From sequence record PQ416618.1: DNA of 64,000 nt, one strand, 5' to 3'. Origin of the DNA: Escherichia phage vB_VIPECOMC06. Positions 514-61,127 of the stretch are shown in pieces. The first letter of the stretch is position 1. Each line of letters starts with the position of its first letter. The notes below the pieces were generated by a model that did not search any database, had not been told where the DNA came from, and worked only from the letters and a program-made list of their open reading frames with translations. The position numbers and the translations under genes are program-made.

Positions 514-552
514 GTTTACAACAAGATAGGGCTATGTTATAGTAGTCCTATC
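514..552 (+). promoter_or_regulatory. early promoter with flanking inverted repeat (PeSL-like)
   Basis: GTTTAC, TGTTATAGT; GATAGGGCTA / TAGTCCTATC arms around the -10. Confidence 0.55.
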
Positions 553-571
553 AAATTAAATGGAGTCCACA

Positions 572-2642: not shown

Positions 2643-3097
2643 TGAGTAAGAAAAATAAAGTGAAAGAACTATCAGCCGGTATTATTTTCCTTACCGAAGA
2701 TAAAGAATTATTCATGGGGCGTGTAACTGGTTCTCGTCCTAAAGGTTCTTTAGCTCATCGGTGGGATATTCCTAAAGGTCGTGTCGAGCCCGGCGAATCT
2801 CCTATTGAAGCCGCTATTCGTGAATGTGAAGAAGAAACTGGGTTTACACAATATGACCCTGCCTTCCTGAAAGACCTAGGTGAACATCGTTACTCAGACA
2901 ATAAGAATATTCATCTGTTCCTATATACCATCCCTGTAGAGCACGAGCAATTCAGAAACAGTGTTTGTAATTCCTATCATACGTTCCCAGACGGACGACA
3001 GATTCCTGAATTTGATGCATTCGCTTTAATTAAACCTTCTCAATGGGAATATGTAATGGGCAAATCATTATATAAGGTGCTCACTACCCTCCTATAA
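2639..3097 (+). CDS. nudE: Nudix hydrolase
   Basis: Nudix box GRVEPGESPIEAAIRECEEETGF; sits immediately upstream of lysozyme as in T4 (e.1); ATGA overlap with upstream ORF. Confidence 0.8.
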   Translation: MMSKKNKVKELSAGIIFLTEDKELFMGRVTGSRPKGSLAHRWDIPKGRVEPGESPIEAAIRECEEETGFTQYDPAFLKDLGEHRYSDNKNIHLFLYTIPVEHEQFRNSVCNSYHTFPDGRQIPEFDAFALIKPSQWEYVMGKSLYKVLTTLL

Positions 3098-3104
3098 GTA
3101 ATAA

Positions 3105-3130
3105 ATACCTCCTATAAACGTGGGAGGTAT
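3105..3130 (+). promoter_or_regulatory. SD-sequestering hairpin with internal late-promoter-like box upstream of e
   Basis: ATACCTCC / GGAGGTAT inverted repeat; loop TATAAACG; right arm contains the e Shine-Dalgarno. Confidence 0.6.
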
Positions 3131-3131
3131 T

Positions 3132-3620
3132 ATGAATATATTTGAAATGCTTCGTAATGACGAAGGTCTTAGACTGACTTTATACAAAGACACTGAAGGC
3201 TTTTGGACGATTGGCATAGGTCATTTAGTAACAAAGAACCCGTCTTTAGCTGTAGCTAAAGCCGAACTTGACAGAATGATCGGGCGTAAATGCAACGGTA
3301 CAATTACCCTTGATGAGGCTGAAAAGTTATTTAATGAAGACGTTGATAAAGCTGTTCGCGGAATCTTGGGTAATGCTAAACTTAAACCGGTGTATGATTC
3401 TTTAGATGCAGTTCGTCGATGTGCATTGGTCAATATGGTCTTCCAAATGGGTGTAGCAGGCGTCGCCGGTTTTACTAATTCTCTTCGTATGCTTCAACAG
3501 AAACGTTGGGACGAAGCGGCAGTAAATCTAGCCCAATCTAAATGGTATCGTCAGACACCTAATCGCGCGAAACGCGTAATCTCAACATTTAAAACAGGAA
3601 CTTGGAAAGCGTATATATGA
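3132..3620 (+). CDS. e: endolysin (T4-type lysozyme)
   Basis: N-terminus [28 protein letters not shown] is the T4 lysozyme signature; ATG at 3132 (track start 3120 is a GTG inside the regulatory hairpin). Confidence 0.95.
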
Positions 3621-3898
3621 AAACATATAGTGAATTTTTATCAGAATCTATTCTTAACGAAGCTACTGACACATTTGCAACTAAGCTAGGTGCAGCTTTG
3701 GTTGAAGCTGAAAGTTTATTAGCACGTATTTCTGAACTTGCTAGTAAGATAGATACTCGCAAATTTGAGCGCACCAGTGATATCGTTAAGCTTGAAGCCT
3801 TGTTGCGTATGTGCGATAAACCAGAAGAAATCGCTAAGAACGGCTCGCTGATGAAACAACGTCTTGAAAAATATATTTCAGGCGCTTCAGAAAAATAG
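3617..3898 (+). CDS. internal-protein-like protein with capsid-targeting N-terminus
   Basis: Starts [10 protein letters not shown], resembling the T4 IP capsid targeting sequence MKTYQEFIAE; ATGA coupling to e. Confidence 0.5.
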
Positions 3899-3899
3899 T

Positions 3900-3953
3900 G
3901 TTTACTTCCTCCAAGGACTTTGATACTATACATTCATCAACTACTTGGAGGAA
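3900..3953 (+). promoter_or_regulatory. early promoter cassette with SD-pairing inverted repeat (denV)
   Basis: GTTTAC -35, TGATACTAT extended -10; TTCCTCCAAG (3906-3915) is the exact reverse complement of CTTGGAGGAA (3944-3953). Confidence 0.55.
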
Positions 3954-3956
3954 ATT

Positions 3957-4370
3957 ATGACTCGTATCAATTTAACACTTGTTTCTGAACTGACCGACCA
4001 ACATCTTATGGCGGAGTATCGTGAATTACCACGCGTATTTGGTGCAGTCCGTAAACATGTTCAAAACGGTAAACGTGTAAAGGATTTTAAAATCTCTCCA
4101 ACATTTATCTTAGGCACAGGACACGTAACATTCTTTTACGACAAACTCGAATTTTTACGTTTACGTCAAATCGAGCTAATCGCTGAATGCTTGAAACGTG
4201 GTTTCAAAATCAAGGACACGACTGTCCAGGATATTTCCGACATCCCTGCAGAATTTCGTAATAATTATGTCCCGTCCGAAGCGTCCATTGCGATAAGTCA
4301 AGCACGCTTAGACGAAAAAATTGCCCAACGTCCTACTTGGTACAAATACTATGGTAAATCAATTTACTAA
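3957..4370 (+). CDS. denV: endonuclease V (pyrimidine dimer DNA glycosylase)
   Basis: [32 protein letters not shown] matches the T4 endo V family; ATG at 3957 after GGAGG SD. Confidence 0.9.
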
Positions 4371-4401
4371 GGAAAAAGGTTGCGATGGTAAAGCTTAAAT
4401 T

Positions 4402-4431
4402 GTTTACGCTTAAGTATTAATATGGTATAAT
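4402..4431 (+). promoter_or_regulatory. early promoter upstream of internal protein genes
   Basis: GTTTAC, 18-bp spacer, TGGTATAAT. Confidence 0.55.
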
Positions 4432-4461
4432 TACTCTATCAAAACAAACAAGGAAACAAAA

Positions 4462-4776
4462 ATGAAAACGTATAAAGAATTTATTGCAGAATCCGCCAAC
4501 CAACGCGTTGAAGGTGGTTATATTTGGATTGAACAAGTTGAGCCACCGAGCCGCACTTCTACAGGTAAATGGAAAATTACTGTTGATGGTCCTGGTGGTA
4601 AACGTAGGACTCTTAAAGAAATTAATGGGTACTATGAAGAAGCTCTTTCGGATGCAGGAACTTACATGATGCAAATCATGATTAAAAACCCTGAAAACCG
4701 TTTTGCAGCTAAAGTCTTCCGTCGCATCGGTAATAAACTTTATGACGCATACTCTAAAAACTTCCCTAAAGAATAA
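4462..4776 (+). CDS. internal protein (injected, capsid-targeted)
   Basis: N-terminus MKTYKEFIAE (T4 IP capsid-targeting sequence with prohead-protease site). Confidence 0.7.
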   Translation: MKTYKEFIAESANQRVEGGYIWIEQVEPPSRTSTGKWKITVDGPGGKRRTLKEINGYYEEALSDAGTYMMQIMIKNPENRFAAKVFRRIGNKLYDAYSKNFPKE

Positions 4777-4802
4777 CATGAATTAAAACAATAGGAACAA
4801 AA

Positions 4803-5381
4803 ATGAAAACATATAAAGAATTTATCGCCGAGGCCTTTGCAGGAAAAGCTCAAGGCATTAATAAGGACGAGTGGACTTATCGTGGTGGAAACGGCTTTGA
4901 CCCTAAAACTGCTCCACTTGAACGATATCTAGCCACAAAGGCTTCCGACTTTAAAGCTTTCGCTTGGGAAGGACTTCGCTGGCGTAACGATCTAAATATT
5001 GAAGTTGACGGACTTAAATTTGCTCATATTGAAGATGTTGTTGCTAGTAACTTAGACGCAGCTTTTGTTAAAGCCGACAGTGATCTTCGACGCTGGAATT
5101 TAAAACTGTTCTCTAAACAAAAAGGACCGAAGTTTGTGCCTAAAGCTGGTAAATGGGTCATTGATAATAAATTAGCTAAGGCTGTCAACTACGCTGGTCT
5201 TGAATTCGCCAAGCACAAATCATCATGGAAAGGTCTTGATGCAATGGCTTTCCGTAAAGAATTTGCTGATGTTATGGCTAAAGGCGGCTTTAAGGCAGAA
5301 ATAGATACCTCTAAAGGTACGTTTAAAGACGCTAATGTTCAGTACGCTTACGCCGTTGCTAATGCAGCCCGTGGTAATTAA
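4803..5381 (+). CDS. internal protein (IPIII-like, 192 aa)
   Basis: N-terminus MKTYKEFIAEA; size similar to T4 IPIII. Confidence 0.7.
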   Translation: MKTYKEFIAEAFAGKAQGINKDEWTYRGGNGFDPKTAPLERYLATKASDFKAFAWEGLRWRNDLNIEVDGLKFAHIEDVVASNLDAAFVKADSDLRRWNLKLFSKQKGPKFVPKAGKWVIDNKLAKAVNYAGLEFAKHKSSWKGLDAMAFRKEFADVMAKGGFKAEIDTSKGTFKDANVQYAYAVANAARGN

Positions 5382-5402
5382 GGCCTATACTTAGGCCTAT
5401 TT
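5381..5402 (+). terminator. stem-loop, putative terminator after IPIII-like gene
   Basis: AGGCCTA-TACT-TAGGCCT perfect 7-bp stem followed by ATTT. Confidence 0.4.
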
Positions 5403-5419
5403 ACATTTAAAGGACACAT

Positions 5420-5749
5420 ATGAAAACATATCAAGAGTTTATCACTGAAGTTACATTATCTGCGGAACAGAAAGCTGCTATCGAAGAAGGTAAAAATCCC
5501 AAAGTAACATATAAAGTAAATAGTAAAGGCGTTTTTGATGGCTTGGTTCAAGACCCTGAATTGAAAAAAGCTCTTTCTAAAACTAATGCGTACTTTGCTC
5601 CTAAATTTAACACAGCCGGTGTACTTATTGGATTGGATGTATTCAACTCTAAAGGTGTTCTATCTAGTGCCTTTGGTTATGCCGCTAACAAAATTACCAA
5701 AGCCGCATGGGAATCCAATACCAAACAAGCTCAAAAGCCTAGAGTATAA
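5420..5749 (+). CDS. internal protein (109 aa)
   Basis: N-terminus MKTYQEFITE. Confidence 0.7.
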   Translation: MKTYQEFITEVTLSAEQKAAIEEGKNPKVTYKVNSKGVFDGLVQDPELKKALSKTNAYFAPKFNTAGVLIGLDVFNSKGVLSSAFGYAANKITKAAWESNTKQAQKPRV

Positions 5750-5922
5750 TTCTTGCCTAATAAAGGGAAACGCAACCTCTCCTTATGAACGTCGAGTCCT
5801 CTGAGTGATGTACCTTTTCCAACCTGTAATAAGGTCGAGCCCAAGTGCGGTAATGGGTTTACATAGCGAGTCGAAGGACCTAACATGTGCCACGGAATGG
5901 CCCCAACCTTAAGAGAAACTAA

Positions 5923-6462
5923 ATGAGAACATTTTTAACTGGACCTTATCTATCCCTGATGAATGCTTTTACACACCATTCTGATGCTAGAGTAGAAGAA
6001 ATTTGTAAGAACGGTTATGCCCCACCATTTGAAGACGTACTCAAGCAGTACTGTACACTTCGTTTAGATGGTGGCAGACAATCTGGTAAATCAACTGCAG
6101 TAACTAATTTTGCTGTTAATTGGCTGTATGACGGTGGAACGATTATTGTTCTTTCTAATACTTCAGCTTATGCTAAAATTTCTGCTGGCAACATTGAAAA
6201 AGAATTTTCTCGTTATTCTAGCGACGATATTCGATTCCGTTTATTTACTGATTCTGTTCGTAGTTTTATTGGCAATGAAGGTTCTAAATTCCGTGGATTA
6301 ACGCTTTCTCGTATTCTGTATATAATTGATGAGCCTATTAAAGCTCCTGATATGGATAAGATTTACAATGTCCATATTAAAACAGTCCAACACTGTTGCA
6401 AAAGCAAATATTGCATCAGCGGTAATGCTCGTCCTCAATTTTTTGTGATTGGAATGCAATGA
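5923..6462 (+). CDS. P-loop-containing hypothetical protein (179 aa)
   Basis: Walker-A-like GGRQSGKST; no family recognised. Confidence 0.45.
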   Translation: MRTFLTGPYLSLMNAFTHHSDARVEEICKNGYAPPFEDVLKQYCTLRLDGGRQSGKSTAVTNFAVNWLYDGGTIIVLSNTSAYAKISAGNIEKEFSRYSSDDIRFRLFTDSVRSFIGNEGSKFRGLTLSRILYIIDEPIKAPDMDKIYNVHIKTVQHCCKSKYCISGNARPQFFVIGMQ

Positions 6463-6767
6463 TGACAACTATTGAAGTTTTTGAGTATTGTTATAACAGC
6501 CCAGTATGCAATAAAAGGGCTCTTGTAGAAAATTATGAGATTTATCATTTTAAACCTAAACGATATCGTTTGACTAAAGGTCCGTTCGCAGGGCAGCAGG
6601 TTCTTTGTACTGCTCCTAATGCACGGTTGATGACTAGTATTCCGCATTTCAAAATGGAATTTATTGATGGGCCGTTTAAGGGATTAATCACTCAAAGTTT
6701 AATGGCGTTTAATTCCGACCCATTTTTGATTAAAGAAAAATCTTGGATAAATTTATTTTCTAATTGA
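6459..6767 (+). CDS. hypothetical protein (102 aa)
   Basis: ATGA start/stop overlap with upstream gene. Confidence 0.4.
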   Translation: MMTTIEVFEYCYNSPVCNKRALVENYEIYHFKPKRYRLTKGPFAGQQVLCTAPNARLMTSIPHFKMEFIDGPFKGLITQSLMAFNSDPFLIKEKSWINLFSN

Positions 6768-6773
6768 GGTTAT

Positions 6774-7136
6774 ATGAAAGCATATCAAATTCTTGAAGGC
6801 ACGCATAAAGGTACTATTTATTTTGAAGACGGTATTCAAGCACGAATTATTGTCTCTAAAACTTTTAAAGAAGACGCTATTGTAGACCCGGAAATTTTCT
6901 ACGGTTTGAATGCTCGTGAAATTGAAATTGAACATCAACCTAAAGTTAAAATTGAAGGTGGTCAACACCTGAACGTTAACGTTCTGCGTCGCGAAACTCT
7001 GGAAGATGCAGTTAAGCATCCAGAAAAATATCCACAGCTGACCATCCGTGTATCTGGTTATGCAGTTCGCTTTAACTCTCTGACTCCAGAACAGCAGCGC
7101 GACGTTATCGCTCGTACCTTTACTGAGAGTCTATAA
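6774..7136 (+). CDS. autonomous glycyl-radical cofactor (GrcA/YfiD-like)
   Basis: C-terminal glycyl radical motif [25 protein letters not shown]; ~120 aa as in GrcA and T4 Y06I. Confidence 0.8.
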
Positions 7137-7360
7137 TGGCTAAATTGATTATAGAAGGGTCTGAAGATGTTTTAAAATGTTTTGCCGCCTGGTTTAGTTG
7201 CTCAGGCGAGCAATCATTCATTGAAGCATTTAGAACGGGTGATATTACTGGAAAATATCCGTCAACCGATATCACTGTACGCGGATATGGTATTAATGAG
7301 CCTATCCAATTGGTCGAATATGACCTTGCCACCGATGAGGAAATTCCTTATGTCGATTGA
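7136..7360 (+). CDS. hypothetical protein (74 aa)
   Basis: Start overlaps upstream stop (TAATG). Confidence 0.4.
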   Translation: MAKLIIEGSEDVLKCFAAWFSCSGEQSFIEAFRTGDITGKYPSTDITVRGYGINEPIQLVEYDLATDEEIPYVD

Positions 7361-7616
7361 AGACATCAAAGGCTACAAGCCGCATACCGATGATAAAATC
7401 AGTAAAGTGAACGCTATTAAAGATGCAGAAGTCCGTCTTGGATTGATGTTTGATGCTCTGATTGAAGAAGCATATATCTTGAAAGAAAATGAATCAGAGC
7501 AACAAACCAAAGAAGATATGGATGCAGTGCAGGCTCTTAAGTATGCTAAGCAACATCTAAAAGAAGCCAGCATGTGGGCATGTCGTGCAGTATTTCGACC
7601 TGAGGAAAAATACTAA
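7350..7616 (+). CDS. hypothetical protein (~88 aa)
   Basis: In-frame ATG at 7350 overlapping the upstream stop; the longer track ORF from 7182 would overlap the upstream gene. Confidence 0.35.
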   Translation: MSIEDIKGYKPHTDDKISKVNAIKDAEVRLGLMFDALIEEAYILKENESEQQTKEDMDAVQALKYAKQHLKEASMWACRAVFRPEEKY

Positions 7617-7831
7617 TGGCTTCTACTATTACTGGGTTATTGGACTTTCAAGAAAAGGTCAACAAAATTTGTAGTGAATACTTAAAGTATCTTGAAGAAG
7701 ACCTTGAAGATTGTAAGGAAGAAGGCGAAGAAGACTATGCTGACCAGCGTCGTCGCCAAATCGAAGAGATGAGGCATTTCGCCGATATGGTATCTAAAGA
7801 ATCTTGGGCTTTAACTCCATTTTATCAATAA
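7616..7831 (+). CDS. hypothetical acidic protein (71 aa)
   Basis: TAATG coupling; highly acidic. Confidence 0.4.
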   Translation: MASTITGLLDFQEKVNKICSEYLKYLEEDLEDCKEEGEEDYADQRRRQIEEMRHFADMVSKESWALTPFYQ

Positions 7832-7835
7832 AGTA

Positions 7836-7886
7836 GTTTACTTCTCCTCTAGATGTGTTACTATAGACCTGTCAACTAGAGGAGAA
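7836..7886 (+). promoter_or_regulatory. early promoter cassette with SD-pairing inverted repeat (regB)
   Basis: GTTTAC, TGTTACTAT; TCTCCTCTAG (7843-7852) complementary to CTAGAGGAGA (7877-7886). Confidence 0.55.
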
Positions 7887-7892
7887 ATCAAA

Positions 7893-8351
7893 ATGACTAT
7901 CAATTCTGACGTTTTTATCCGCCGTAATAAACTCCGTCGAATCTTTGAAACGGAGTTCCGCAAAATAAATGCCGGTATAAAAGATGCTGCAAAGTCTCTT
8001 GGAATACCAGGCTTTCATATCAAGTATTCTCAACATCTCTTAGATCGTGCTATCCAGAGAGAAATAGATGAGAACTACGTTTTTGAATTATTTCGTAAAG
8101 TAAAAAATCATGTTAAAGAAGTTGCAGAATTTTTATCAATGCCGGCACGTCCAGATGTTGATGAAGATTTTGTCGAAGGTGTTGAATATCGCCCAGGCCG
8201 TTTAGAAATAACTGACGGAAATCTTTGGTTAGGACTTACAGTTTGTCGCGAAAATCCAGCATTCAAAATGAAGACTCTTCAATGCAGAATGGCTATTATT
8301 AACAGTAAACGACTACCAGGAAAAGCTTCTAAAGCAGTGATTAAAATCTAG
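7893..8351 (+). CDS. regB: RegB-like sequence-specific endoribonuclease
   Basis: MTINSDVFIRRNKLRR...HLLDRAIQREIDE...EYRPGRLEITDGNLWLG resembles T4 RegB as recalled; size ~152 aa; correct locus between denV and tk. Confidence 0.7.
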   Translation: MTINSDVFIRRNKLRRIFETEFRKINAGIKDAAKSLGIPGFHIKYSQHLLDRAIQREIDENYVFELFRKVKNHVKEVAEFLSMPARPDVDEDFVEGVEYRPGRLEITDGNLWLGLTVCRENPAFKMKTLQCRMAIINSKRLPGKASKAVIKI

Positions 8352-8359
8352 AGGTAAAC

Positions 8360-8902
8360 ATGAGAAAAGCACTACTCGCTGGTCTATTTGCTCTTTCATT
8401 ATCAGCACATAGCTCCGAGCATACTTTTAGTAATGTCCAACTCGATAACTTGAATTATGCTTATCAGTTTGGGGAACAGTTTTCTAAGGACGGAAAATTT
8501 AAAACGCATGAAAATATGCATAAGAAAGGACTTGGATACATAATGGCCGCAATACTATGGCAGGAATCATCTGCCGGTATTAATCTTAAAGATAAGAAAG
8601 GTCACCATGCGTATGGAATGTTCCAAAATTATCTACCAACAATGAGGGCAAGAATTAACCAGCTTGGTTATAATATGACTGATGCCCAAATTAAGAAAAT
8701 GCTATCTAAGCGGTCTAATTCAGCCAGATGGGCTTATATCGAATTTTCTTATTGGTTAAATATACATAACGGGGATATAAGAAAAGCTATATCCTCATAT
8801 AATGCGGGATGGAAGACGAGTGCTGGAAGTAAATATGCTTCTGAAGTCCTAGAAAAGGCTAATTACCTTAAATCAAACAAACTACTGGAAATAAAAGAAT
8901 GA
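8360..8902 (+). CDS. secreted protein, possible lytic transglycosylase-like
   Basis: Signal peptide MRKALLAGLFALSLSAHS; QESS...GxxQ motif region; family assignment tentative. Confidence 0.45.
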   Translation: MRKALLAGLFALSLSAHSSEHTFSNVQLDNLNYAYQFGEQFSKDGKFKTHENMHKKGLGYIMAAILWQESSAGINLKDKKGHHAYGMFQNYLPTMRARINQLGYNMTDAQIKKMLSKRSNSARWAYIEFSYWLNIHNGDIRKAISSYNAGWKTSAGSKYASEVLEKANYLKSNKLLEIKE

Positions 8903-9246
8903 CCAAAATGTTGGCTTTAATAGTTGGCTTGGTTTCATTTAACGCTCTTGCTAATACTACATATACTGATGTAACGGAGTATACAAACAGAACAGCGTCT
9001 GATTATTGTGGTAAAAGTCAAGAGTGTAAAGTAGATTTTTCACAAAAATTGTTATATGCGTATAAAGACGGAGAAAAAGATGGGGCGTCTAGTAGGTTCA
9101 AGGCGTCTACCTTAATTAAAAGATACTATAAAAAATGGCAAATATTAGAATGCTCGGTGGCGGAACCTAAAGATAAGGCAGCATGCAATTCTATGGTGGA
9201 CCGTCTAGTTGACTCTTATACTAGAGGACTTGCAGCAAGTGATTAA
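8899..9246 (+). CDS. secreted protein (115 aa)
   Basis: Signal peptide MTKMLALIVGLVSFNALA; Cys-containing mature part. Confidence 0.45.
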   Translation: MTKMLALIVGLVSFNALANTTYTDVTEYTNRTASDYCGKSQECKVDFSQKLLYAYKDGEKDGASSRFKASTLIKRYYKKWQILECSVAEPKDKAACNSMVDRLVDSYTRGLAASD

Positions 9247-11426: not shown

Positions 11427-11454
11427 AGCCCCTTCCTTACGGTTGGGGCTTTTT
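11427..11454 (+). terminator. putative rho-independent terminator
   Basis: AGCCCC...GGGGCT stem followed by TTTT. Confidence 0.5.
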
Positions 11455-11465
11455 GGCATTTAGCA

Positions 11466-11494
11466 GTTTACTTTTCCTCAGGTTGTGTTATAGT
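11466..11494 (+). promoter_or_regulatory. early promoter
   Basis: GTTTAC, 17-bp spacer, TGTTATAGT. Confidence 0.55.
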
Positions 11495-11521
11495 AGACCT
11501 TACTTACTAGAGGAGAACGTT

Positions 11522-11701
11522 ATGTCACGTAAAGAAAAAATTTCTAAGTTAATGTTTTTGATTGAAGAGTACGCTAATGCGGTGTCTGATTGGGAAAATG
11601 CTCATGGTTGCGAAGATGGAGACATCGACATTAACAGAGCTATGAAAAAGATGGCAGATGCCCACACTGAATTACAAATGTATGTTAACGAGATTATGTG
11701 A
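11522..11701 (+). CDS. hypothetical protein (~59 aa)
   Basis: ATG at 11522 after GAGGAGA SD; track start 11453 lies inside the promoter. Confidence 0.35.
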   Translation: MSRKEKISKLMFLIEEYANAVSDWENAHGCEDGDIDINRAMKKMADAHTELQMYVNEIM

Positions 11702-11967: not shown

Positions 11968-12183
11968 ATGTTATATGACCCAAGCGGTTGTTCTGAAGAT
12001 GGTGTGATTGTTCTGGAGCCTGAGCATCCAGTTGGTGATGTATATCGCACCGTTGAAGTATGCGAATGTAATTTCGTTGAAGGTAATACTGGCGGAATTT
12101 CCATTGAGCAAGATGATGATGTTATTTACCTGGATGCAAGCCAAGTAGAAGCTCTTTATAACATTTTAAAACATAATCGGTAG
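11968..12183 (+). CDS. hypothetical protein (~71 aa), member of tandem paralog pair
   Basis: Starts MLYDPSGCSEDGVIVLEPE; SD GAGGAAA. Confidence 0.4.
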   Translation: MLYDPSGCSEDGVIVLEPEHPVGDVYRTVEVCECNFVEGNTGGISIEQDDDVIYLDASQVEALYNILKHNR

Positions 12184-12221
12184 TTTACGTCTTGGTAGGA
12201 CTATGATATAGTAATCCTACC
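12183..12221 (+). promoter_or_regulatory. early promoter with flanking inverted repeat (PeSL-like)
   Basis: GTTTAC, TGATATAGT; GGTAGGACTA / TAATCCTACC arms. Confidence 0.55.
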
Positions 12222-12528
12222 AAAACAAATGGAGAACAAAATGAAACTTTTGCTTATCGCTTATGTTGTAGTACAATACAATTATCCGATGTTTACTTAT
12301 AACATGGTAAACGGCATAGTGAATCTTATTGAAACGAGTATGGTAAAATGACCCGTGAACAAGCTAATAAATTGATGGACCTTATCCATGACTTACGTGA
12401 AGCCGATTCAGATTTGAATGATGTAGCTTATCACGCGGTAAATGATAACGGAGACTTTTATGAAAATCAGGTTGATGCTTGCCAGAATGCTTTGGTGAAT
12501 TTTGTTGAAACTTTAATTGGTGAATAAT

Positions 12529-13059
12529 ATGAAAACTGTAATTGAAACGACCGAACTGTTCGGTGATTTGACTATCGAAAAACGTGGTAATGTATACGTT
12601 CTGACTCAGGAAGATGATGGTATTACTATTTGTCCTATGGAACTAGACGAGATTTTGAAACTCAATCCGCCTGGTCATGCATCGGCAATTAATATTGGTG
12701 GAGACCTTCAGGCTCGTTTTTATCATGGGCTTTATAACGGTGCTAATATCGAAACTGAAGACAAATGCCTTTCTATCGATAACTGGAAAACATTCGTTGC
12801 TAAGGTGAAAGAATTCTTGGAATCCGAACCACCTGAAAAGGCTAAACTTAAATGGGGTATCAGTCGTGGTGCTTACATTATTAATCCAATAGCTCCAAAC
12901 TATACCACGACTTTGGCTGTCATGAATTCTTATGAAGATGGTGATGTAGTAACTATTCGCCAAAATGATGATTTACGTTCACATGTTACTACATTTACCA
13001 AAGACGAAGCTGTAGCTCTTAAAGCTTATCTCGATTCCATTATCCCAACTTTGAAATAA
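12529..13059 (+). CDS. hypothetical protein (~176 aa)
   Basis: ATG at 12529 (track start is a TTG). Confidence 0.5.
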   Translation: MKTVIETTELFGDLTIEKRGNVYVLTQEDDGITICPMELDEILKLNPPGHASAINIGGDLQARFYHGLYNGANIETEDKCLSIDNWKTFVAKVKEFLESEPPEKAKLKWGISRGAYIINPIAPNYTTTLAVMNSYEDGDVVTIRQNDDLRSHVTTFTKDEAVALKAYLDSIIPTLK

Positions 13060-13068
13060 GGAATTATT

Positions 13069-13542
13069 ATGATTATCAATGAAAACTCTTGGCACTTTAA
13101 AATTTATGCCGCGTTCAATAGTACATGGAATCGTCCGAAAACGTTGTGTGTTTATTTTTGGAAAACGTTAATCCCGGTATTGGCTGTTTCAATTATTGGA
13201 TTTGCTATTTTAGCCGCAGTCACAATTATTGGCCAGGAATTTTTAACTAGATTCTTTGTTTTTAGTAGTCTATGGACATTAGTTCCGGCCTCAATTGGCG
13301 TAGGCATTTTAATGGTAGCAGTCATGGCTTTTATTGCTGCCGGGGCGGTAATTGGTCCGTCTTGGTTGTTAGACAAATATAACGACAGAAAATATTATAA
13401 AGAAATTGAGCTCATTGCGCAAAACCAAGAACGAATTAAAAATGGACTTGAACCTATTGAACGTAAGAAATCATTAATAGGTGAATACCTTAAAGCTCGT
13501 AAAGAAAAAGTCTGTCCTACTCTTGAATATAAGGCTAAATGA
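13069..13542 (+). CDS. predicted membrane protein (157 aa)
   Basis: Three hydrophobic helices; C-terminal charged tail. Confidence 0.5.
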   Translation: MIINENSWHFKIYAAFNSTWNRPKTLCVYFWKTLIPVLAVSIIGFAILAAVTIIGQEFLTRFFVFSSLWTLVPASIGVGILMVAVMAFIAAGAVIGPSWLLDKYNDRKYYKEIELIAQNQERIKNGLEPIERKKSLIGEYLKARKEKVCPTLEYKAK

Positions 13543-16351: not shown

Positions 16352-16386
16352 GTTTACAAGGTCTATGGTTATGTTATTATAGACCT
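16352..16386 (+). promoter_or_regulatory. early promoter with flanking inverted repeat (PeSL-like)
   Basis: GTTTAC, TGTTATTAT; AGGTCTAT / ATAGACCT arms. Confidence 0.55.
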
Positions 16387-16407
16387 ATCAACTACTGGAG
16401 GTAAAAC

Positions 16408-16935
16408 ATGAACGCTAAAGATATTTTCAACCTGGTAAATTATAACGACGGTAAATTTAAATCTGAAGCACAAAGCAAGTTCTTTAATGACGTTGCTTAT
16501 GGTAACGAGATTACCGTGGACGGAGGTCAGATTTTCAAATCTCGCTGGAATTGGATTGTTATCATCGATTCAGTTGGAATTGTGGAAGTCTACAAAAACA
16601 CTAACAAAAAACGTACATTATTCTGGTCTCGTGAAACTAACGAGCAGTACAAAAAGGATAAAGCATCTCGTTTATCTAAAGTAACCCAGGAAGATATCGA
16701 GTTTATCAAGAAAGATATCGAGATGTACGAAAATTTAATCGCTGAAGACCAGGCAGTACTCGATAAGTTTGATGAAATTAAAGCTTCTCGTGAAATCCCT
16801 GACTTCATGAAAGAAACAGTAAACGAACGATACGCTCTCACTTCAGAACGTATTGCAAACTATACAAAACAGAAAGCAGAACGTATTAGTACTCTTCGGA
16901 AATTTGAAGAACGTTTAAAGACGGTTCACGCATAA
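16408..16935 (+). CDS. hypothetical protein (175 aa)
   Basis: SD GGAGG; downstream of promoter cassette. Confidence 0.45.
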   Translation: MNAKDIFNLVNYNDGKFKSEAQSKFFNDVAYGNEITVDGGQIFKSRWNWIVIIDSVGIVEVYKNTNKKRTLFWSRETNEQYKKDKASRLSKVTQEDIEFIKKDIEMYENLIAEDQAVLDKFDEIKASREIPDFMKETVNERYALTSERIANYTKQKAERISTLRKFEERLKTVHA

Positions 16936-17993: not shown

Positions 17994-18022
17994 TGTACAA
18001 CCAAGGATGGTTGGAGTATAAT
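17994..18022 (+). promoter_or_regulatory. repeated promoter cassette CAACCAAGGATGGTTGGAGTATAAT (copy 1)
   Basis: TGTACA -35-like, palindrome CAACCA-AGGA-TGGTTG, -10 TATAAT. Confidence 0.55.
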
Positions 18023-18985: not shown

Positions 18986-19015
18986 GTTTACAACCAAGGA
19001 TGGTTGGAGTATAAT
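18986..19015 (+). promoter_or_regulatory. repeated promoter cassette (copy 2)
   Basis: GTTTAC, CAACCAAGGATGGTTGG, TATAAT. Confidence 0.6.
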
Positions 19016-22226: not shown

Positions 22227-22257
22227 TATAAATACCCTTATCTAATATGGTAAGGGT
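22227..22257 (+). promoter_or_regulatory. late promoter plus SD-sequestering hairpin upstream of gene 49
   Basis: Exact TATAAATA at 22227-22234; ACCCTTA / TAAGGGT stem including the SD. Confidence 0.65.
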
Positions 22258-22262
22258 TTATT

Positions 22263-26064: not shown

Positions 26065-26093
26065 GTTTACATCCTCAATAGATGTGTTAAGAT
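26065..26093 (+). promoter_or_regulatory. early promoter
   Basis: GTTTAC, 17-bp spacer, TGTTAAGAT. Confidence 0.5.
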
Positions 26094-26121
26094 TAAACCA
26101 TCTACTATAGAGGAAAATAAA

Positions 26122-48821: not shown

Positions 48822-48840
48822 GGAGACTTCGGTCTCCTTT
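48822..48840 (+). terminator. rho-independent terminator after gene 41
   Basis: GGAGAC-TTCG-GTCTCC followed by TTT. Confidence 0.65.
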
Positions 48841-48844
48841 CGGG

Positions 48845-48875
48845 GTTTACATCTTCCTCTAGGCATGATATGATA
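48845..48875 (+). promoter_or_regulatory. early promoter
   Basis: GTTTAC, TGATATGAT. Confidence 0.5.
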
Positions 48876-48903
48876 TACTTACACTAACCAAGAGGAGAAC
48901 AAA

Positions 48904-50160: not shown

Positions 50161-50198
50161 GTTTACATTATAGATGGACTATAGTATAGTAGTCCTAT
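50161..50198 (+). promoter_or_regulatory. early promoter with flanking inverted repeat (PeSL-like)
   Basis: GTTTAC; GGACTAT / TAGTCC arms around TATAGT. Confidence 0.5.
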
Positions 50199-50219
50199 CA
50201 AATCAACTAAGGAGTTAAA

Positions 50220-53763: not shown

Positions 53764-54000
53764 ATGGGTGGTTATGTAAACATCAAAACCTTTACGCATC
53801 CTGCCGGTGAAGGCAAAGAAGTTAAAGGTATGGAAGTTTCTGTACCGTTTGAGATTTATTCAAACGAACATCGGATTGCAGATTCTCATTACCAAATCTT
53901 TCCGTCAGAAAAGGCAGCATATTCTACTGTAGTTTCTGATGCAGCTGATTGGAAAACTAAGAATGCTGCAATGTTTACCCCTACACCGGTAAGCGGTTAA
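53764..54000 (+). CDS. soc: small outer capsid protein Soc
   Basis: GYVNIKTF...HYQIFPSEKAAYSTV; 78 aa; preceded by exact late-promoter box TATAAATA and followed by a strong terminator. Confidence 0.75.
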   Translation: MGGYVNIKTFTHPAGEGKEVKGMEVSVPFEIYSNEHRIADSHYQIFPSEKAAYSTVVSDAADWKTKNAAMFTPTPVSG

Positions 54001-55371: not shown

Positions 55372-55532
55372 AAGAGAAATTTAAAGAGAAATTCTTACTA
55401 GAAATCAAGGAAAAAGACTTTGAGACATGGTATCGAATGGTGAAAGGGTTGACATTGCTTTTTAAAGCATCGTTATTCATGTTAGAACAACCTGGACCTG
55501 ATGGACCTTTAGTAGGAAAGCTTAAAAAGTAG
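55368..55532 (+). CDS. hypothetical small protein (54 aa)
   Basis: ATGA coupling; below track cutoff. Confidence 0.3.
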   Translation: MKEKFKEKFLLEIKEKDFETWYRMVKGLTLLFKASLFMLEQPGPDGPLVGKLKK

Positions 55533-55560
55533 TTTACATTCCCTCCTCTCGTGTTATGAT
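55532..55560 (+). promoter_or_regulatory. early promoter
   Basis: GTTTAC, 17-bp spacer, TGTTATGAT. Confidence 0.5.
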
Positions 55561-55660
55561 AGGCTTATCTTTAAATGGAGGTCTATCATGACATGTCAAT
55601 CTGAACTTCAAGAACGCGAATACCTAACAAAATCATTCATTTAAAAATATTGAATTTTTA

Positions 55661-55690
55661 GTGTACAATCTCTTCCGATGATGATACTAT
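55661..55690 (+). promoter_or_regulatory. early promoter variant upstream of the ART gene
   Basis: GTGTAC, TGATACTAT. Confidence 0.45.
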
Positions 55691-55718
55691 ACCTTTATCA
55701 ACCATAGGAGAAACCTAA

Positions 55719-56327
55719 ATGTTTATGCCGTATAATGAATGTGAAATTGAAGAAATGGTTCGTCGTGCTCAATGCCCGGACTATCAGGATGAACTTCAGT
55801 ACAAAATAGATGAGCAATTCAGTGACATTGAACAAAGTGTACTGTGGCAATGTATGGAAAACAAGCCAGACAGCATCCAACAAGATTTAAGTGCAATTGT
55901 TCGTAGAAATTGGTCTTCTTCTGTTCCTGAGACAATGTATCGTGGAATCTCTAAGAAAACTATGGCCACACTCGATGATAAAGGCATTGGTAGTATTATT
56001 AAATTTGACAGAGTAATGAGCTTCAGCCCAGTGTTCAGTGTAGCACGTAACTTCGCTTCATATAATTTTTATGGAACATTTAATATGTTCTGCATCAAAG
56101 ATGCACCATTTGCTTTCAACTTCCGTGAACATATGCTTAACATGATTCTGGCTGCACCATCTTGCGAGTTCAATGGAGCTTTCCCTGAAGCTACAAGACG
56201 GTCTAATGCTAGACTTATATCTGACGAATGTGAATTTATGCTCCCTATAGGGACTACACTGCGTGTAGATTCTATTATTCAAGATGGACGTTATACAATC
56301 TGGAATCTGTCTATTGTAGGTTACTGA
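55719..56327 (+). CDS. ADP-ribosyltransferase (T4 ModA/ModB-like)
   Basis: ART triad-like elements: Arg in YRGIS, S-x-S in FSPVFSV, ExE in SDECEFM; ~200 aa; locus between soc and dda as T4 mod genes. Confidence 0.55.
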   Translation: MFMPYNECEIEEMVRRAQCPDYQDELQYKIDEQFSDIEQSVLWQCMENKPDSIQQDLSAIVRRNWSSSVPETMYRGISKKTMATLDDKGIGSIIKFDRVMSFSPVFSVARNFASYNFYGTFNMFCIKDAPFAFNFREHMLNMILAAPSCEFNGAFPEATRRSNARLISDECEFMLPIGTTLRVDSIIQDGRYTIWNLSIVGY

Positions 56328-56401
56328 CTGGATTGGAATAACCAGATGGAACTCAGAACCATTATAACACATAAAAAATTAAAGCATTTTACGAAAAAAG
56401 A

Positions 56402-56430
56402 GTGTACACTACCTGAGGGCATGATATTAT
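56402..56430 (+). promoter_or_regulatory. early promoter variant
   Basis: GTGTAC, 17-bp spacer, TGATATTAT. Confidence 0.45.
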
Positions 56431-56479
56431 AAGCTTATCAGCTAAACGACCTAACGTCCGTAAGACAGAGGAAAATATT

Positions 56480-57226
56480 ATGTTATCAAATAATAAAATT
56501 AACAAAATCAATCGTCGTCTTGACCACACCAGAGCTTCTGCGAAGAGACGCTCTAAGGATTTTAACTTAGACTTTAATTACCTTAAAAACATTCTTGATC
56601 AAAAGGTCTGCGCTTACTCAGGTGAATCTTTCAATAACTCTGTTGAAGGTGAGAAATTATCCTTAGAACGTTTTAATAATGATATAGGCTACATTAAAGG
56701 TAATGTTATCCCAGTTAAGAAAAAATATAACACGGCTCGTTCTGATTTAACATTAGAAGAGCTTATTGAGAAACGTGATGCCATTGCAAGACGTATCGCT
56801 AATCCTTCTGCCCGTAAAGTAGAGAAACTTAACCTCGACGAGAAGAAATGGGCCCAAATTAAAAAGGTTTATGGTACTATTTTAAAAATCCGAGCAAAAC
56901 GTGAAAATCGTGTTAAGCATATGGCGAACATGATGAAAAATCAACCTTTATCTAACGAATCTAAACTTAGAATTGTTGCTTTGAAAGCACGCATTAATGG
57001 CTCACATCAAGCAGAAGGCCATGAACTTACTAAACTCAACGTTCTTCTTAAAGGCTCTGACTGGAAAACTAAAACTAAATTAACTGACGCTGAATCGCTT
57101 TTCGATACATATGATAAAGTTATCCAAGGTCTGCAACGTTTTGAAAAGATCGGTTTCATTGGTAAATTAAAATTGAAACGTGGCTTACCACTTAGCGCAT
57201 CATTATTCCAACTGATTAAAGGTTAA
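56480..57226 (+). CDS. hypothetical basic protein (248 aa), possibly Srd-like
   Basis: Position corresponds to T4 srd (upstream of dda.1/dda); assignment is positional only. Confidence 0.4.
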   Translation: MLSNNKINKINRRLDHTRASAKRRSKDFNLDFNYLKNILDQKVCAYSGESFNNSVEGEKLSLERFNNDIGYIKGNVIPVKKKYNTARSDLTLEELIEKRDAIARRIANPSARKVEKLNLDEKKWAQIKKVYGTILKIRAKRENRVKHMANMMKNQPLSNESKLRIVALKARINGSHQAEGHELTKLNVLLKGSDWKTKTKLTDAESLFDTYDKVIQGLQRFEKIGFIGKLKLKRGLPLSASLFQLIKG

Positions 57227-59542: not shown

Positions 59543-59572
59543 GTTTACAACCAAGGATGGTTGGAGTATAAT
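59543..59572 (+). promoter_or_regulatory. repeated promoter cassette (copy 3)
   Basis: GTTTAC, CAACCAAGGATGGTTGG, TATAAT; same sequence as at 18986. Confidence 0.6.
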
Positions 59573-60490: not shown

Positions 60491-60541
60491 GTTTACTTCT
60501 CCTCCGGTTTTGATATTATAACCATATCAACCAGAGGAGAA
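60491..60541 (+). promoter_or_regulatory. early promoter cassette with SD-pairing inverted repeat
   Basis: GTTTAC, TGATATTAT; TTCTCCTCCGGTT vs AACCAGAGGAGAA (12/13 complementary). Confidence 0.5.
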
Positions 60542-61070: not shown

Positions 61071-61103
61071 TGTACAACAACTACGGTCTATGATACTATA
61101 GAC
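61071..61103 (+). promoter_or_regulatory. early promoter variant with flanking inverted repeat
   Basis: TGTACA, TGATACTAT; GGTCTAT / ATAGACC arms. Confidence 0.45.
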
Positions 61104-61127
61104 CTATCAAAACAAGAGGAGAATATT

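What the first reader, a model, noticed from the sequence alone, without database searches (positions are those of the whole stretch)
3900..3953. Early-promoter cassettes whose upstream arm base-pairs with the downstream Shine-Dalgarno
At denV (3906-3915 versus 3944-3953), regB (7843-7852 versus 7877-7886), 11466, 48845 and 60491, the bases just after the -35 GTTTAC are the near-exact reverse complement of the gene's AGAGGAGAA ribosome-binding site, with the -10 element in the loop. Read-through transcripts from upstream would hide the SD in a hairpin, whereas transcripts started at the local promoter would lack the left arm and be translatable. This is the logic known for T4 e and gene 49, here apparently applied to many early genes.
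Basis: partly seen in the sequence, partly recalled or inferred. Interest (0 to 1): 0.6.

Follow-up and report, generated by a model that had tools for sequence, protein, structure and literature searches.

The report
Early promoters nested in ribosome-site-hiding hairpins
In this RB69-like T4-type phage, about a quarter of the early promoters carry, between their -35 and -10 boxes, the complement of the downstream gene's ribosome-binding site, so RNA arriving from upstream should fold that site away while RNA started at the gene's own promoter leaves it open; this is a known trick of T4 late genes, found here on early genes and conserved across many T4-like phages.

Summary
The window is an RB69-like phage. 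Seven early-promoter cassettes on the + strand put a CCTC-containing arm just after the -35 GTTTAC and a GAGG Shine-Dalgarno (SD) downstream; shuffles give 0.00. In read-through RNA the SD is paired, with hairpins of -12 to -22 kcal/mol. In RNA started about 7 nt after the -10 the SD is free. Three sites are strong (denV, regB, motB.2), three moderate, and one (a modB stub) uses the -10 box as its left arm.

The pairing is under selection. T4 has it at the same genes with different stem sequences. Across 24 distinct cassettes, 81% of cells pair against 40-50% in slid controls, with 57 double changes against 6-19. In an IMG/VR pattern scan that did not require pairing, 51% of promoter-like matches had at least 4 extra contiguous pairs, against 2% of matches without a -10.

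Most likely this blocks translation of read-through RNA, as at T4 e and gene 49, both recovered here as positive controls. The held reviews describe that mechanism only for late genes, and the PeSL papers do not describe SD pairing. Scope is 6-7 of about 23 early cassettes. The translational effect itself is untested.

The parts
3900..3905 (+). denV cassette: -35 hexamer GTTTAC
   Evidence: The RB69 orthologue was predicted as Pe:64934.
3906..3915 (+). denV cassette: left arm (anti-SD) ttcctccaag, in the promoter spacer (-30 to -21)
   Evidence: Exact reverse complement of 3944-3953.
3924..3929 (+). denV cassette: -10 hexamer TACTAT preceded by TG, lying in the hairpin loop. Predicted +1 is ~3936.
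3944..3953 (+). denV cassette: right arm cttggaggaa, which is the Shine-Dalgarno. denV ATG is at 3957-3959.
   Evidence: P(unpaired) is 0.00 in read-through RNA and 0.50 in local RNA.
7842..7852 (+). regB cassette: left arm ttctcctctag (-35 at 7836-7841, -10 at 7859-7864)
7876..7886 (+). regB cassette: right arm ctagaggagaa, which is the SD. regB ATG is at 7893.
   Evidence: P(unpaired) is 0.00 in read-through RNA and 0.45 in local RNA.
11472..11482 (+). mobD.2a (DUF7438) cassette: left arm ttttcctcagg, imperfect (-35 at 11466-11471, -10 at 11489-11494). A terminator-like hairpin lies just upstream at ~11430-11455.
11507..11517 (+). mobD.2a cassette: right arm ctagaggagaa, which is the SD. ATG is at 11522.
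   Evidence: 0.14 against 0.58
26072..26084 (+). 55.6-like (DUF7290) cassette: interrupted left arm tcctc..tagatg (-35 at 26065-26070, -10 at 26088-26093)
26099..26114 (+). 55.6-like cassette: right arm catcta..gagga, which includes the SD. ATG is at 26122.
   Evidence: 0.27 against 0.61
48852..48863 (+). RB69ORF041c-like cassette: left arm tcttcctctagg, imperfect (-35 at 48845-48850, -10 at 48869-48874). A GC hairpin with UUCG loop lies just upstream at 48823-48838.
48888..48899 (+). RB69ORF041c-like cassette: right arm ccaagaggagaa, which is the SD. ATG is at 48904.
   Evidence: 0.03 against 0.77
55550..55565 (+). modB-stub cassette, variant register: the left arm contains the -10 box (55555-55560). 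The -35 is at 55532-55537.
   Evidence: (-22.5 kcal/mol)
55580..55595 (+). modB-stub cassette: right arm covering the end of the SD and the ATG (55588)
60497..60507 (+). motB.2 cassette: left arm ttctcctccgg (-35 at 60491-60496, -10 at 60514-60519)
60531..60541 (+). motB.2 cassette: right arm ccagaggagaa, which is the SD. ATG is at 60546.
   Evidence: 0.14 against 0.73
3104..3131 (+). Positive control, known kind: hairpin aatacctcctat/gtgggaggtatt sequestering the SD of gene e (lysozyme, 3132-3620), -25.6 kcal/mol
   Evidence: Mechanism is described in PMC3014915.
22227..22257 (+). Positive control, known kind: late promoter TATAAATA followed by hairpin acccttatc/ggtaagggt sequestering the gene 49 SD (ATG at 22263)

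Best explanation
Each cassette is a sigma-70-type T4 early promoter built inside an RNA hairpin. The 5' arm of the hairpin lies in the promoter spacer, just after the -35. The 3' arm is the gene's own Shine-Dalgarno.

RNA polymerase arriving from any upstream promoter (early read-through, middle or late) transcribes both arms. The SD is then locked in a 10-12 bp helix and the cistron is poorly translated. RNA polymerase starting at the cassette's own promoter begins about 20 nt downstream of the 5' arm, so its mRNA has a free SD.

The result is that denV, regB, motB.2 and a few small early genes are translated essentially only from their own promoter. That restricts them to the immediate-early burst and insulates them from cumulative upstream transcription. 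This is the mirror image of the late-only genes e and 49 in the same transcription units.

What is shown: the anatomy, the predicted folding difference, and evolutionary selection for pairing. What is inferred: the block to translation, the position of +1, and the temporal consequence. A knock-on Rho-dependent attenuation of untranslated read-through RNA is plausible but speculative.
For: Anatomy and chance:
- 7 pattern matches against 0.00 expected from shuffles.
- Duplex energies reach -19 kcal/mol, with 0/500 shuffles reaching them at three sites.

Folding:
- Read-through MFE is -12 to -22 kcal/mol with the SD paired. Local transcripts fold at 0 to -3 with the SD free.
- P(SD unpaired) is 0.00-0.27 in read-through context against 0.45-0.77 in local transcripts. 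That matches the known e and 49 hairpins in the same window, at 0.00 and 0.02.

Promoters:
- The RB69 orthologues of all these promoters were independently predicted, with +1 downstream of the left arm.

Read-through is plausible:
- No terminator-like site is predicted directly upstream of 3900, 7836 or 60491. The nearest + strand call before 3900 is a weak one at 3693-3710 inside the preceding ORF.
- Upstream early promoters exist on the same strand.
- The two cassettes that sit behind visible terminator-like hairpins (11466, 48845) have the weakest stems.

Selection:
- T4 has the same arrangement at denV, regB, motB.2 and nrdC.8, with different stem sequences.
- denV in ~35 IMG/VR T4-like phages and regB in ~15 keep the SD paired with changed inner stems (ccaag/cttgg, ctgtag/ctacag, ccgtttg/caaacgg, tctag/ctaga, tcttgac/gttaaga, tctttatg/cataaaga, tgtaag/cttaca). 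In some lineages the left arm has moved onto the -10 box.
- On 24 distinct cassettes, 81.4% of cells pair against 40-50% when slid. There are 57 double-change cells against 6-19, and a covariation score of 0.421 against <=0.116, reached by 0/500 shuffles.
- In a pattern scan of IMG/VR that did not require inner pairing, 51% of 55 promoter-like matches had >=4 extra contiguous pairs, against 2% of 57 matches without a -10.

Indirect T4 data:
[quoted passage not shown] The abundant regB mRNA must therefore be the hairpin-free, promoter-proximal species.
Against: No experimental 5' ends, structure probing or translation data for this phage were available. +1 is inferred from promoter geometry and a published HMM prediction.

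A loop of ~28 nt, and co-transcriptional ribosome loading, could make the block leaky.

Only 6-7 of ~23 early cassettes have it. Several cassettes with the same AGAGGAGAA SD (1809, 54050, 61128) lack an anti-SD arm, so it is gene-specific, not a general rule.

At nrdC.8 T4 has an SD-pairing arm, while this phage has a hairpin that does not touch the SD. The hairpin classes may therefore be interchangeable for some other purpose.

The wobble-pair asymmetry that would prove an RNA-level rather than a DNA-level structure is not significant: G.U 5 against A.C 3.

Cassette copies and orthologues are related, so shuffle statistics overstate independence. The slid-partner control and the diversity of stem sequences answer this only in part.
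Confidence: 0.7

Rival explanations
1. PeSL-type module (promoter-early stem-loop; Arbiol 2010, Comeau 2014). On this view the stem-loop is primarily a transcription attenuator or terminator for upstream transcription. The conserved cassette sequence is a substrate for homologous recombination that shuffles genes, and involvement of the SD is incidental.
For: The cassettes have the PeSL composition: an AT-rich upstream region, a strong sigma-70-like promoter, a stem-loop, an SD and an ATG. The RB49 stem-loop reduced lacZ expression when placed between a promoter and the reporter. Other cassettes in the window carry hairpins that do not touch the SD. Three identical promoter copies exist at 17997, 18990 and 59547. 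Several class A genes are small, variable ORFs (mobD.2a, ORF041c-like).
Against: No U-tract follows the right arm; it is followed by A-rich sequence and the ATG. None of the class A hairpins was called terminator-like. The stems differ in sequence between copies and co-vary, which argues for structure and not for shared sequence homology. At denV and regB, which are conserved and not hyperplastic, the SD is the paired partner in nearly every lineage, even when the left arm moves. The five published PeSL subclasses do not include SD pairing. This view is not exclusive of the main explanation: a translation block could cause Rho-dependent attenuation.
Confidence: 0.12
2. RNA-stability device. 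The hairpin shields the GGAG of the SD from the phage RegB endoribonuclease (and the decay that follows it) in long polycistronic RNAs. It could also serve as a protective structure for the flanking cistrons.
For: All the right arms contain GGAG or GAGG. [quoted passage not shown]
Against: The T4 denV SD is RegB-resistant for sequence reasons, because it lacks the A-rich 3' context, yet it has one of the best-conserved hairpins. Among 70 cassettes, a good RegB 3' context is not significantly more common when the stem is paired: 15/40 against 7/30, p=0.30. Shielding and translational block would occur together, so this is at most an additional effect.
Confidence: 0.08
3. Translational coupling. 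The hairpin keeps the SD closed until a ribosome finishing the upstream ORF melts the left arm, so that the downstream gene is translated only when the upstream gene is.
For: The upstream stop codons lie very close to the cassettes: TAG at 3896-3898, TAA at 7829-7831, TAA at 60484-60486.
Against: The left arms begin 8-11 nt after the last base of the stop codon. From general knowledge of the ribosome footprint, that is at or beyond the reach of a terminating ribosome. The arrangement makes no use of the promoter that always sits in the loop. Cassettes 11466 and 48845 follow terminator-like hairpins, not closely abutting ORFs.
Confidence: 0.04
4. A DNA-level or non-adaptive inverted repeat. Examples are quasi-palindrome 'correction' by template switching during replication, or a cruciform or ssDNA hairpin used in recombination or replication, with no role in RNA.
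For: Inverted repeats are symmetric, so the sequence alone cannot tell DNA from RNA. The wobble asymmetry test was inconclusive. From memory, T4 is a classical system for quasi-palindrome-templated mutation.
Against: The right arm is always the SD of a gene on the transcribed strand, and all 7 occurrences are on the early-transcribed strand. The same genes keep SD pairing while the left arm changes position: spacer in some lineages, -10 box in others. That is expected for selection on SD occlusion, not for a fixed DNA palindrome.
Confidence: 0.04

Closest known systems
T4 late-gene RBS-sequestering hairpins with a nested promoter (e, soc, 49, I-TevI; also segB, mobE)
   Same: The SD and/or AUG is paired with an upstream arm in transcripts that start far upstream. 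A promoter placed inside the structure makes transcripts that lack the 5' arm and are translated (PMC3014915; PMC2988022). Two members, e and 49, are present in this window and give the same accessibility signature.
   Different: In those cases the nested promoter is a gp55 late promoter (TATAAATA), and the effect is 'late only'. The 2010 review states that the genes regulated this way 'are all late genes'. Here the nested promoter is a sigma-70 early promoter, the anti-SD sits in the -35/-10 spacer, and the predicted effect is 'own-promoter, immediate-early only'.
PeSL, promoter-early stem-loop cassettes of RB49/phi1, T4/PST and nt-1/KVP40 (Arbiol 2010; Comeau 2014)
   Same: A composite intergenic cassette of AT-rich region, strong early promoter, stem-loop, SD and ATG, repeated many times in the early regions of T4-like phages.
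   Different: The published stems lie between -35 and -10, overlap one of the boxes, or lie upstream of the promoter or just before +1. They are interpreted as terminators or attenuators and as recombination sites. Pairing with the SD and a translational role are not mentioned in the text I could read. RB69-type phages were not analysed there.
Bacillus subtilis sigG read-through hairpin
   Same: [quoted passage not shown] The logic is the same, with a non-late promoter.
   Different: It is a single bacterial locus with 20+ bp. It is not a repeated cassette, and the arm is not located in the promoter spacer as a family rule.
IS10/Tn10 'fold-back inhibition', protection from external promoters (recalled from memory, not checked here)
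   Same: Transcripts entering from outside pair an upstream segment with the transposase ribosome-binding site. Transcripts from the element's own promoter start inside the structure and are translatable. This insulates a gene from read-through.
   Different: It is a transposon, not a phage early gene. The resemblance is recalled and was not tested.
RegB/S1 target sites (GGAGRAYARAA) in T4 early SDs
   Same: The right arms are GGAG-containing early SDs, some with a good RegB 3' context, for example 48892-48902 GAGGAGAACAA.
   Different: The RegB site is a single-stranded sequence element, not a hairpin. No significant association was found between pairing and RegB context.

Membership tests
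Promoter-nested RBS-sequestering hairpin (T4 e/soc/49/I-TevI type) | The SD and/or start codon lies in a stable helix in transcripts initiated upstream | tested here: met
   MFE is -12 to -22 kcal/mol with the SD paired. P(unpaired) is 0.00-0.27.
Promoter-nested RBS-sequestering hairpin (T4 e/soc/49/I-TevI type) | A promoter lies inside the structure, so that its transcripts lack the 5' arm | tested here: met
   The -10 is in the loop. Predicted +1 is ~20 nt 3' of the left arm. The orthologous RB69 promoters were independently predicted. This rests on prediction only; no 5' ends were mapped.
Promoter-nested RBS-sequestering hairpin (T4 e/soc/49/I-TevI type) | The nested promoter is a late (TATAAATA, gp55) promoter and the gene is a late gene | tested here: not met
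   The nested promoters are GTTTAC-N17/18-TAnnnT early promoters. No TATAAATA occurs in these cassettes. regB and denV are early genes in T4.
Promoter-nested RBS-sequestering hairpin (T4 e/soc/49/I-TevI type) | Translation is demonstrably lower from long than from short transcripts | not testable with these tools
   This needs reporters, toeprinting or ribosome profiling.
PeSL (promoter-early stem-loop) | A strong sigma-70-like early promoter with an AT-rich upstream region, followed by the SD and ATG of the next gene | tested here: met
.
PeSL (promoter-early stem-loop) | The stem-loop is in one of the five described positions: upstream of -35, overlapping -35, between the boxes, overlapping -10, or just before +1 | tested here: not met
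   The class A helix runs from the spacer to the SD and encloses the -10 and +1. Other cassettes in the window (class B and C) do fit the described positions.
PeSL (promoter-early stem-loop) | The stem-loop acts as a transcription terminator or attenuator | tested here: inconclusive
   There is no U-run after the stem and no terminator-like call at these sites. Rho-dependent or other attenuation cannot be tested here.
PeSL (promoter-early stem-loop) | Association with indels or gene shuffling in hyperplastic regions | not tested
   Only one indel was examined. The modB deletion has its end points inside the ORF, not in cassettes.
Intrinsic (Rho-independent) terminator | A GC-rich stem immediately followed by a U-run | tested here: not met
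   The right arms are followed by aaattATG, aaatcaaaATG or taatATG. They are not in the terminator lists.
Described RNA family (Rfam) | A match to a curated covariance model | tested here: not met
   0 matches at gathering threshold over the whole window.

The most novel reading that the evidence does not exclude
T4-like phages may use the otherwise unconstrained -35/-10 spacer of early promoters as a programmable 'anti-SD' (or anti-leader) register. Each early cassette would then decide for itself whether RNA arriving from upstream may be translated. This would be a general, evolvable insulation code that defines an 'immediate-early only' protein class (regB, denV, motB.2 and others). Through Rho acting on untranslated RNA it could also set the boundaries of early transcription units. 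The co-occurring hairpins that pair the spacer with the region just after the -10 would be a second setting of the same device.
Probability: 0.3. Interest if true: 0.65.

Novelty: new variant of a known kind. Interest (0 to 1): 0.5.

Why it matters
Three reasons it would matter if confirmed:

1. It would add a translational layer to the classical immediate-early / delayed-early distinction in T4-type phages. Some early proteins, notably the tightly controlled RegB nuclease, would be made only from their own promoter, even though their cistrons keep being transcribed from upstream at later times. A 2022 T4 transcriptome/proteome study reports mRNA/protein timing discrepancies and lists SD-level regulation as an open question.

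2. It would reinterpret part of the 'PeSL' stem-loops as translational insulators and not as terminators.

3. It is a compact, portable design for synthetic biology: a promoter whose spacer silences read-through expression of its own gene.

It is directly testable in T4, where the same hairpins exist at denV, regB, motB.2 and nrdC.8.

Tried and rejected
- **MAFFT alignment of natural regB leaders (A1).** It mis-registered the SDs. I replaced it with an alignment anchored on CTCC...GGAG with an artificial linker (A2). Only natural bases were counted.
- **Sense versus antisense folding energy.** This was uninformative: the sense strand was more stable in 15 of 48 cassettes.
- **G.U versus A.C wobble asymmetry.** A first count (21 against 3) was biased by my helix definition. 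The symmetric recount gave 5 against 3, which is not significant. RNA-level versus DNA-level pairing is therefore not settled by this test.
- **RegB 3'-context enrichment among paired cassettes.** Not significant, p=0.30.
- **motB.2 orthologue collection.** The single-protein scan returned only near-identical loci. The modB query failed because modB is largely deleted in this phage.
- **Enrichment of occluded SDs at promoter-proximal versus other genes.** The difference is weak: 7/21 against 15/95 with P<0.2. The claim rests on the specific spacer-SD pairing, not on a global excess.
- **Exact TATAAATA upstream of gene e.** It was not found. Only near matches occur in 3085-3120, so I do not claim a mapped late promoter feeding denV.
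- **Older T4 literature.** Miller 2003 MMBR, Valerie 1986 and McPheeters 1986 are not held in the library. Liebig & Ruger 1989 and the 1994 T4 book were not looked up. I therefore cannot exclude that individual early-gene hairpins (denV, regB) were noted there.
- **Rfam.** No hits.

Full report
**Identity of the window.** A 6 kb piece (3000-9000) is 97-98% identical to RB69-like coliphages (Mosigvirus: S143_2, phi25-307, RB69) and carries e, denV and regB. Early genes run on the + strand. I transferred gene names from the RB69 record by coordinate arithmetic and BLAST.

**The observation.**
- At denV, 3906-3915 (ttcctccaag) is the exact reverse complement of 3944-3953 (cttggaggaa).
- At regB the complementarity is 11/11 (7842-7852 with 7876-7886).
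- In each case the left arm directly follows the -35 GTTTAC, the -10 hexamer lies in the loop, and the right arm is the SD 4-7 nt before the ATG.

A scan for GTTTAC-N16-19-TAnnnT followed by SD+ATG+ORF finds 23 early cassettes on the + strand. Six of them have a spacer/SD duplex of <= -10 kcal/mol:

| Cassette | Duplex energy | Spacer shuffles reaching it (of 500) |
|---|---|---|
| denV | -17.5 | 0 |
| regB | -19.0 | 0 |
| 60491 | -17.8 | 0 |
| 48845 | -12.5 | 7 |
| 11466 | -11.2 | 31 |
| 26065 | -10.8 | 1 |

. A seventh cassette, 55532, uses another register. The -10 box and its flank pair with the end of the SD and the ATG, at -22.5 kcal/mol. The pattern GTTTAC-N1-5-CCTC-N22-46-GAGG occurs 7 times, all on the + strand, against 0.00 in 100 shuffles. 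That is roughly a quarter of early cassettes, which is less than 'many'.

**Which genes.**
- 3900: denV
- 7836: regB
- 11466: mobD.2a (DUF7438)
- 26065: a 55.6-like DUF7290 protein
- 48845: an RB69ORF041c-like ORF
- 60491: motB.2
- 55532: the remnant of modB

.

**Folding.** With 10 nt upstream of the -35 included, the minimum-energy fold pairs the SD with the spacer arm, at -12.1 to -22.5 kcal/mol. RNAs starting 7 nt after the -10 fold at 0 to -3 kcal/mol with the SD open. With 120 nt of upstream context, the mean probability that the SD is unpaired is as follows:

| Gene | Read-through | Local transcript |
|---|---|---|
| denV | 0.00 | 0.50 |
| regB | 0.00 | 0.45 |
| 48904 | 0.03 | 0.77 |
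| mobD.2a | 0.14 | 0.58 |
| motB.2 | 0.14 | 0.73 |
| 26122 | 0.27 | 0.61 |

- Gene e (3132-3620; Pfam Phage_lysozyme) has a -25.6 kcal/mol hairpin at 3104-3131 and P = 0.00.
- Gene 49 (ATG at 22263) has TATAAATA at 22227 followed by a hairpin and P = 0.02.

**Are the promoters real, and is +1 downstream of the left arm?** No 5' ends are available for this phage. However, Nolan et al. (2006) predicted RB69 early promoters with an HMM. Their list contains the orthologue of every cassette discussed here: Pe:64934 denV, Pe:61376 regB, Pe:7443 motB.2, Pe:58138 mobD.2a, Pe:20971, Pe:43945 and Pe:13466 modB. In that model the 3' end is the putative start site. That corresponds to window position ~3936 for denV, 21 nt beyond the left arm. 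[quoted passage not shown] By sigma-70 geometry, a spacer element cannot be part of the transcript that the promoter makes.

**Is there read-through?**
- No terminator-like site is predicted directly upstream of 3900, 7836 or 60491. The nearest + strand calls before 3900 are 2516-2535 and a weak one at 3693-3710, inside the preceding ORF.
- Upstream ORFs end 1-4 nt before the -35.
- Other early promoters lie upstream on the same strand.
- The review literature states that long early transcripts run into gene e, which lies two genes upstream of denV here.
- The two cassettes that sit just behind visible terminator-like hairpins (11466 and 48845) have the weakest, mismatched stems. This is what relaxed selection would give, but n = 2.

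**Comparative evidence.** The same scan on the early regions of RB69 and T4 gives 6 of 26 and 4 of 30 cassettes. In T4 they precede denV (atctcctgtag/ctacaggaga, -17.8), regB (ttttcctcttgac/gttaagaggagaa, -21.6), motB.2 and nrdC.8. The feature is therefore not peculiar to this phage. At denV, regB and motB.2 it is orthologous between T4 and RB69-like phages while the stem sequence differs.

Upstream regions of denV from ~35 IMG/VR T4-like genomes and of regB from ~15 nearly always sequester the SD. There are at least eight different inner-stem sequences. In several denV lineages the left arm has moved onto the -10 box (tatgatgtcttcc/ggaggacatcatg), the same register as window cassette 55532.

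I anchored 24 distinct cassettes on CTCC...GGAG without regard to the rest, which kept three that do not pair. Results:
- Own arms give a mean contiguous inner run of 4.3 pairs, against 1.15 for arms swapped between cassettes.
- The pair-count tool gives 81.4% of cells paired against 40-50% for partners slid by 1-3 columns.
- There are 57 cells changed on both sides against 6-19 in the slid controls.
- The covariation score is 0.421 against <=0.116, reached by 0 of 500 shuffles.

As a test that did not use pairing for selection, I scanned IMG/VR for GTTTAC-NN-CTCC-N26-44-GGAG-N5-11-ATG. Among 112 distinct matches, the 55 with a -10 hexamer at the right spacing had >=4 further contiguous pairs in 51% of cases. 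The 57 without a -10 (chance matches) did so in 2%. Selection for pairing between the spacer and the SD is therefore well supported.

**What I could not show.**
- Whether the structure acts in RNA or in DNA is not settled by wobble asymmetry: G.U 5 against A.C 3 under a symmetric count. An earlier count was biased.
- The argument for RNA is that the conserved partner is always the SD of the downstream gene on the transcribed strand, and that the left arm may sit in different places as long as the SD is covered.
- The translational effect itself is an inference from established knowledge of SD occlusion and from the T4 e precedent, where translation is reduced 100-fold.

**Mechanism proposed.** RNA from any upstream promoter contains both arms, so the SD is closed and the cistron is poorly translated. 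RNA from the cassette's own promoter lacks the left arm, so the SD is open.

Early promoters are shut off within minutes, while upstream middle, late or read-through transcription continues. The expected result is own-promoter, immediate-early-only synthesis of RegB, DenV, MotB.2 and a few small proteins. This fits the statement that RegB production 'must be tightly regulated'.

It also fits the fact that RegB cleaves the SD of its own mRNA in vivo although it is inhibited by secondary structure. The abundant regB mRNA must be the open, promoter-proximal form. An untranslated read-through cistron might in addition be subject to Rho. That would reconcile this view with the 'attenuator' reading of PeSLs, but it is speculation.

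**Rivals.**
1. *PeSL attenuator/recombination module.* The composition is the same. But there is no U-tract and no terminator call. The stems co-vary, which argues for structure, not for conserved homology. SD pairing is not among the five published stem positions.
2. *Shielding of GGAG from RegB.* This is plausible as a side effect. But T4 denV is RegB-resistant for sequence reasons, and pairing is not associated with a good RegB context (p = 0.30).
3. *Translational coupling.* The left arms start 8-11 nt past the stop codon, at or beyond the reach of a terminating ribosome. The model also ignores the nested promoter.
4. *DNA-level or non-adaptive palindrome.* This does not explain why the SD is always the partner.
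5. *Chance.* Excluded.

**Relation to what is known.** The logic is that of the T4 late genes e, soc, 49 and I-TevI and of some homing-endonuclease genes. It is also that of B. subtilis sigG and, from memory, of IS10 fold-back inhibition. The difference is the promoter class and the direction of the temporal effect. The 2010 review explicitly says that the T4 genes regulated this way 'are all late genes'. The reviews of T4 post-transcriptional and prereplicative control, the RB69 genome paper and the two PeSL papers do not mention an anti-SD in early-promoter spacers. No Rfam family matches.

Older T4 papers are not in the held library. I therefore rate it a new variant of a known kind, with the reservation that single cases may have been noted before 2000.

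**Verdict.** The translational effect remains to be measured.

Noticed in passing
window 514-560, 1809-1850, 12183-12230, 16352-16395, 50161-50205, 61071-61112: A second class of early-promoter hairpin. The spacer pairs with the last bases of the -10 and the ~10 nt after it (e.g. ataggacta...tagtcctat, ttggtagga...tcctaccaa, aggtctat...atagacct). The SD is not included. Duplexes are -10 to -15 kcal/mol, with 0-3 of 300 shuffles reaching them. T4 promoters show the same, with other sequences. This fits the published PeSL class that overlaps the -10. Its function is unknown, and it never co-occurs with the anti-SD class.
   Followed up: partly
window 17997-18022, 18990-19015, 59547-59572: Three identical copies of a promoter core, ACAACCAAGGATGGTTGGAGTATAAT (0.00 expected by chance). 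It has a small hairpin, AACCA-agga-TGGTT, inside the spacer. Two copies are 1 kb apart and the third is 40 kb away. They are possible substrates for recombination between cassettes.
   Followed up: partly
window 55588-55720: About 500 bp of modB present in RB69 are missing here. Alignment to RB69 jumps from reverse-complement position 56148 to 56652. This leaves the modB promoter, hairpin, SD and ATG in front of an 18-codon stub (MTCQSELQEREYLTKSFI*). The deletion end points lie inside the ORF, not in promoter cassettes.
   Followed up: partly
window 3085-3131 and 22227-22262: The classical SD-sequestering hairpins of gene e (lysozyme, -25.6 kcal/mol) and gene 49 (TATAAATA plus hairpin) are both present. 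Upstream of e there are only near matches to the late-promoter consensus (tataagta, taataaata, tataaac), with no exact TATAAATA.
   Followed up: partly
window 13030-13070 (gene starting 13069), also 18049 and 10893: The SDs of these genes are also predicted to be almost fully paired in read-through context (P unpaired 0.02, 0.07 and 0.12). At 13069 and 10893 no promoter was recognised in the structure. At 18049 an early-promoter copy (17997-18022) lies just upstream but was not in my promoter list. I did not examine these further.
   Followed up: no
L009, L015, L016, L024-L026, L028, L030, L031, L037, L038 (denV upstream, positions ~330-403 of each locus): In several T4-like lineages the denV SD and ATG are sequestered by an arm made of the -10 hexamer and the next ~7 nt (e.g. 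tatgatgtcttcc with ggaggacatcatg, -22 to -25 kcal/mol), not by the -35-proximal spacer. The outcome is the same with a different architecture at an orthologous site.
   Followed up: partly
window 16352-16410 compared with T4 nrdC.8 upstream (T4 coordinates ~53886-53943): At the orthologous nrdC.8 cassette, T4 pairs the spacer with the SD (gttcctc/ggaggaac, -16.1). This phage instead has the hairpin that flanks the -10 and leaves the SD free. Hairpin classes therefore turn over at a given gene.
   Followed up: no
window 544-554, 16381-16391, 50191-50201, 61100-61110 (also 7865-7875, 11495-11503 with changes): There is a conserved motif AG(A/T)CCTATCAA directly after the -10 of many early promoters: 4 exact matches against 0.10 expected. 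It corresponds to the C-rich -3 to -1 preference noted for RB69 by Nolan et al. 2006. It forms the right arm of the second hairpin class.
   Followed up: partly
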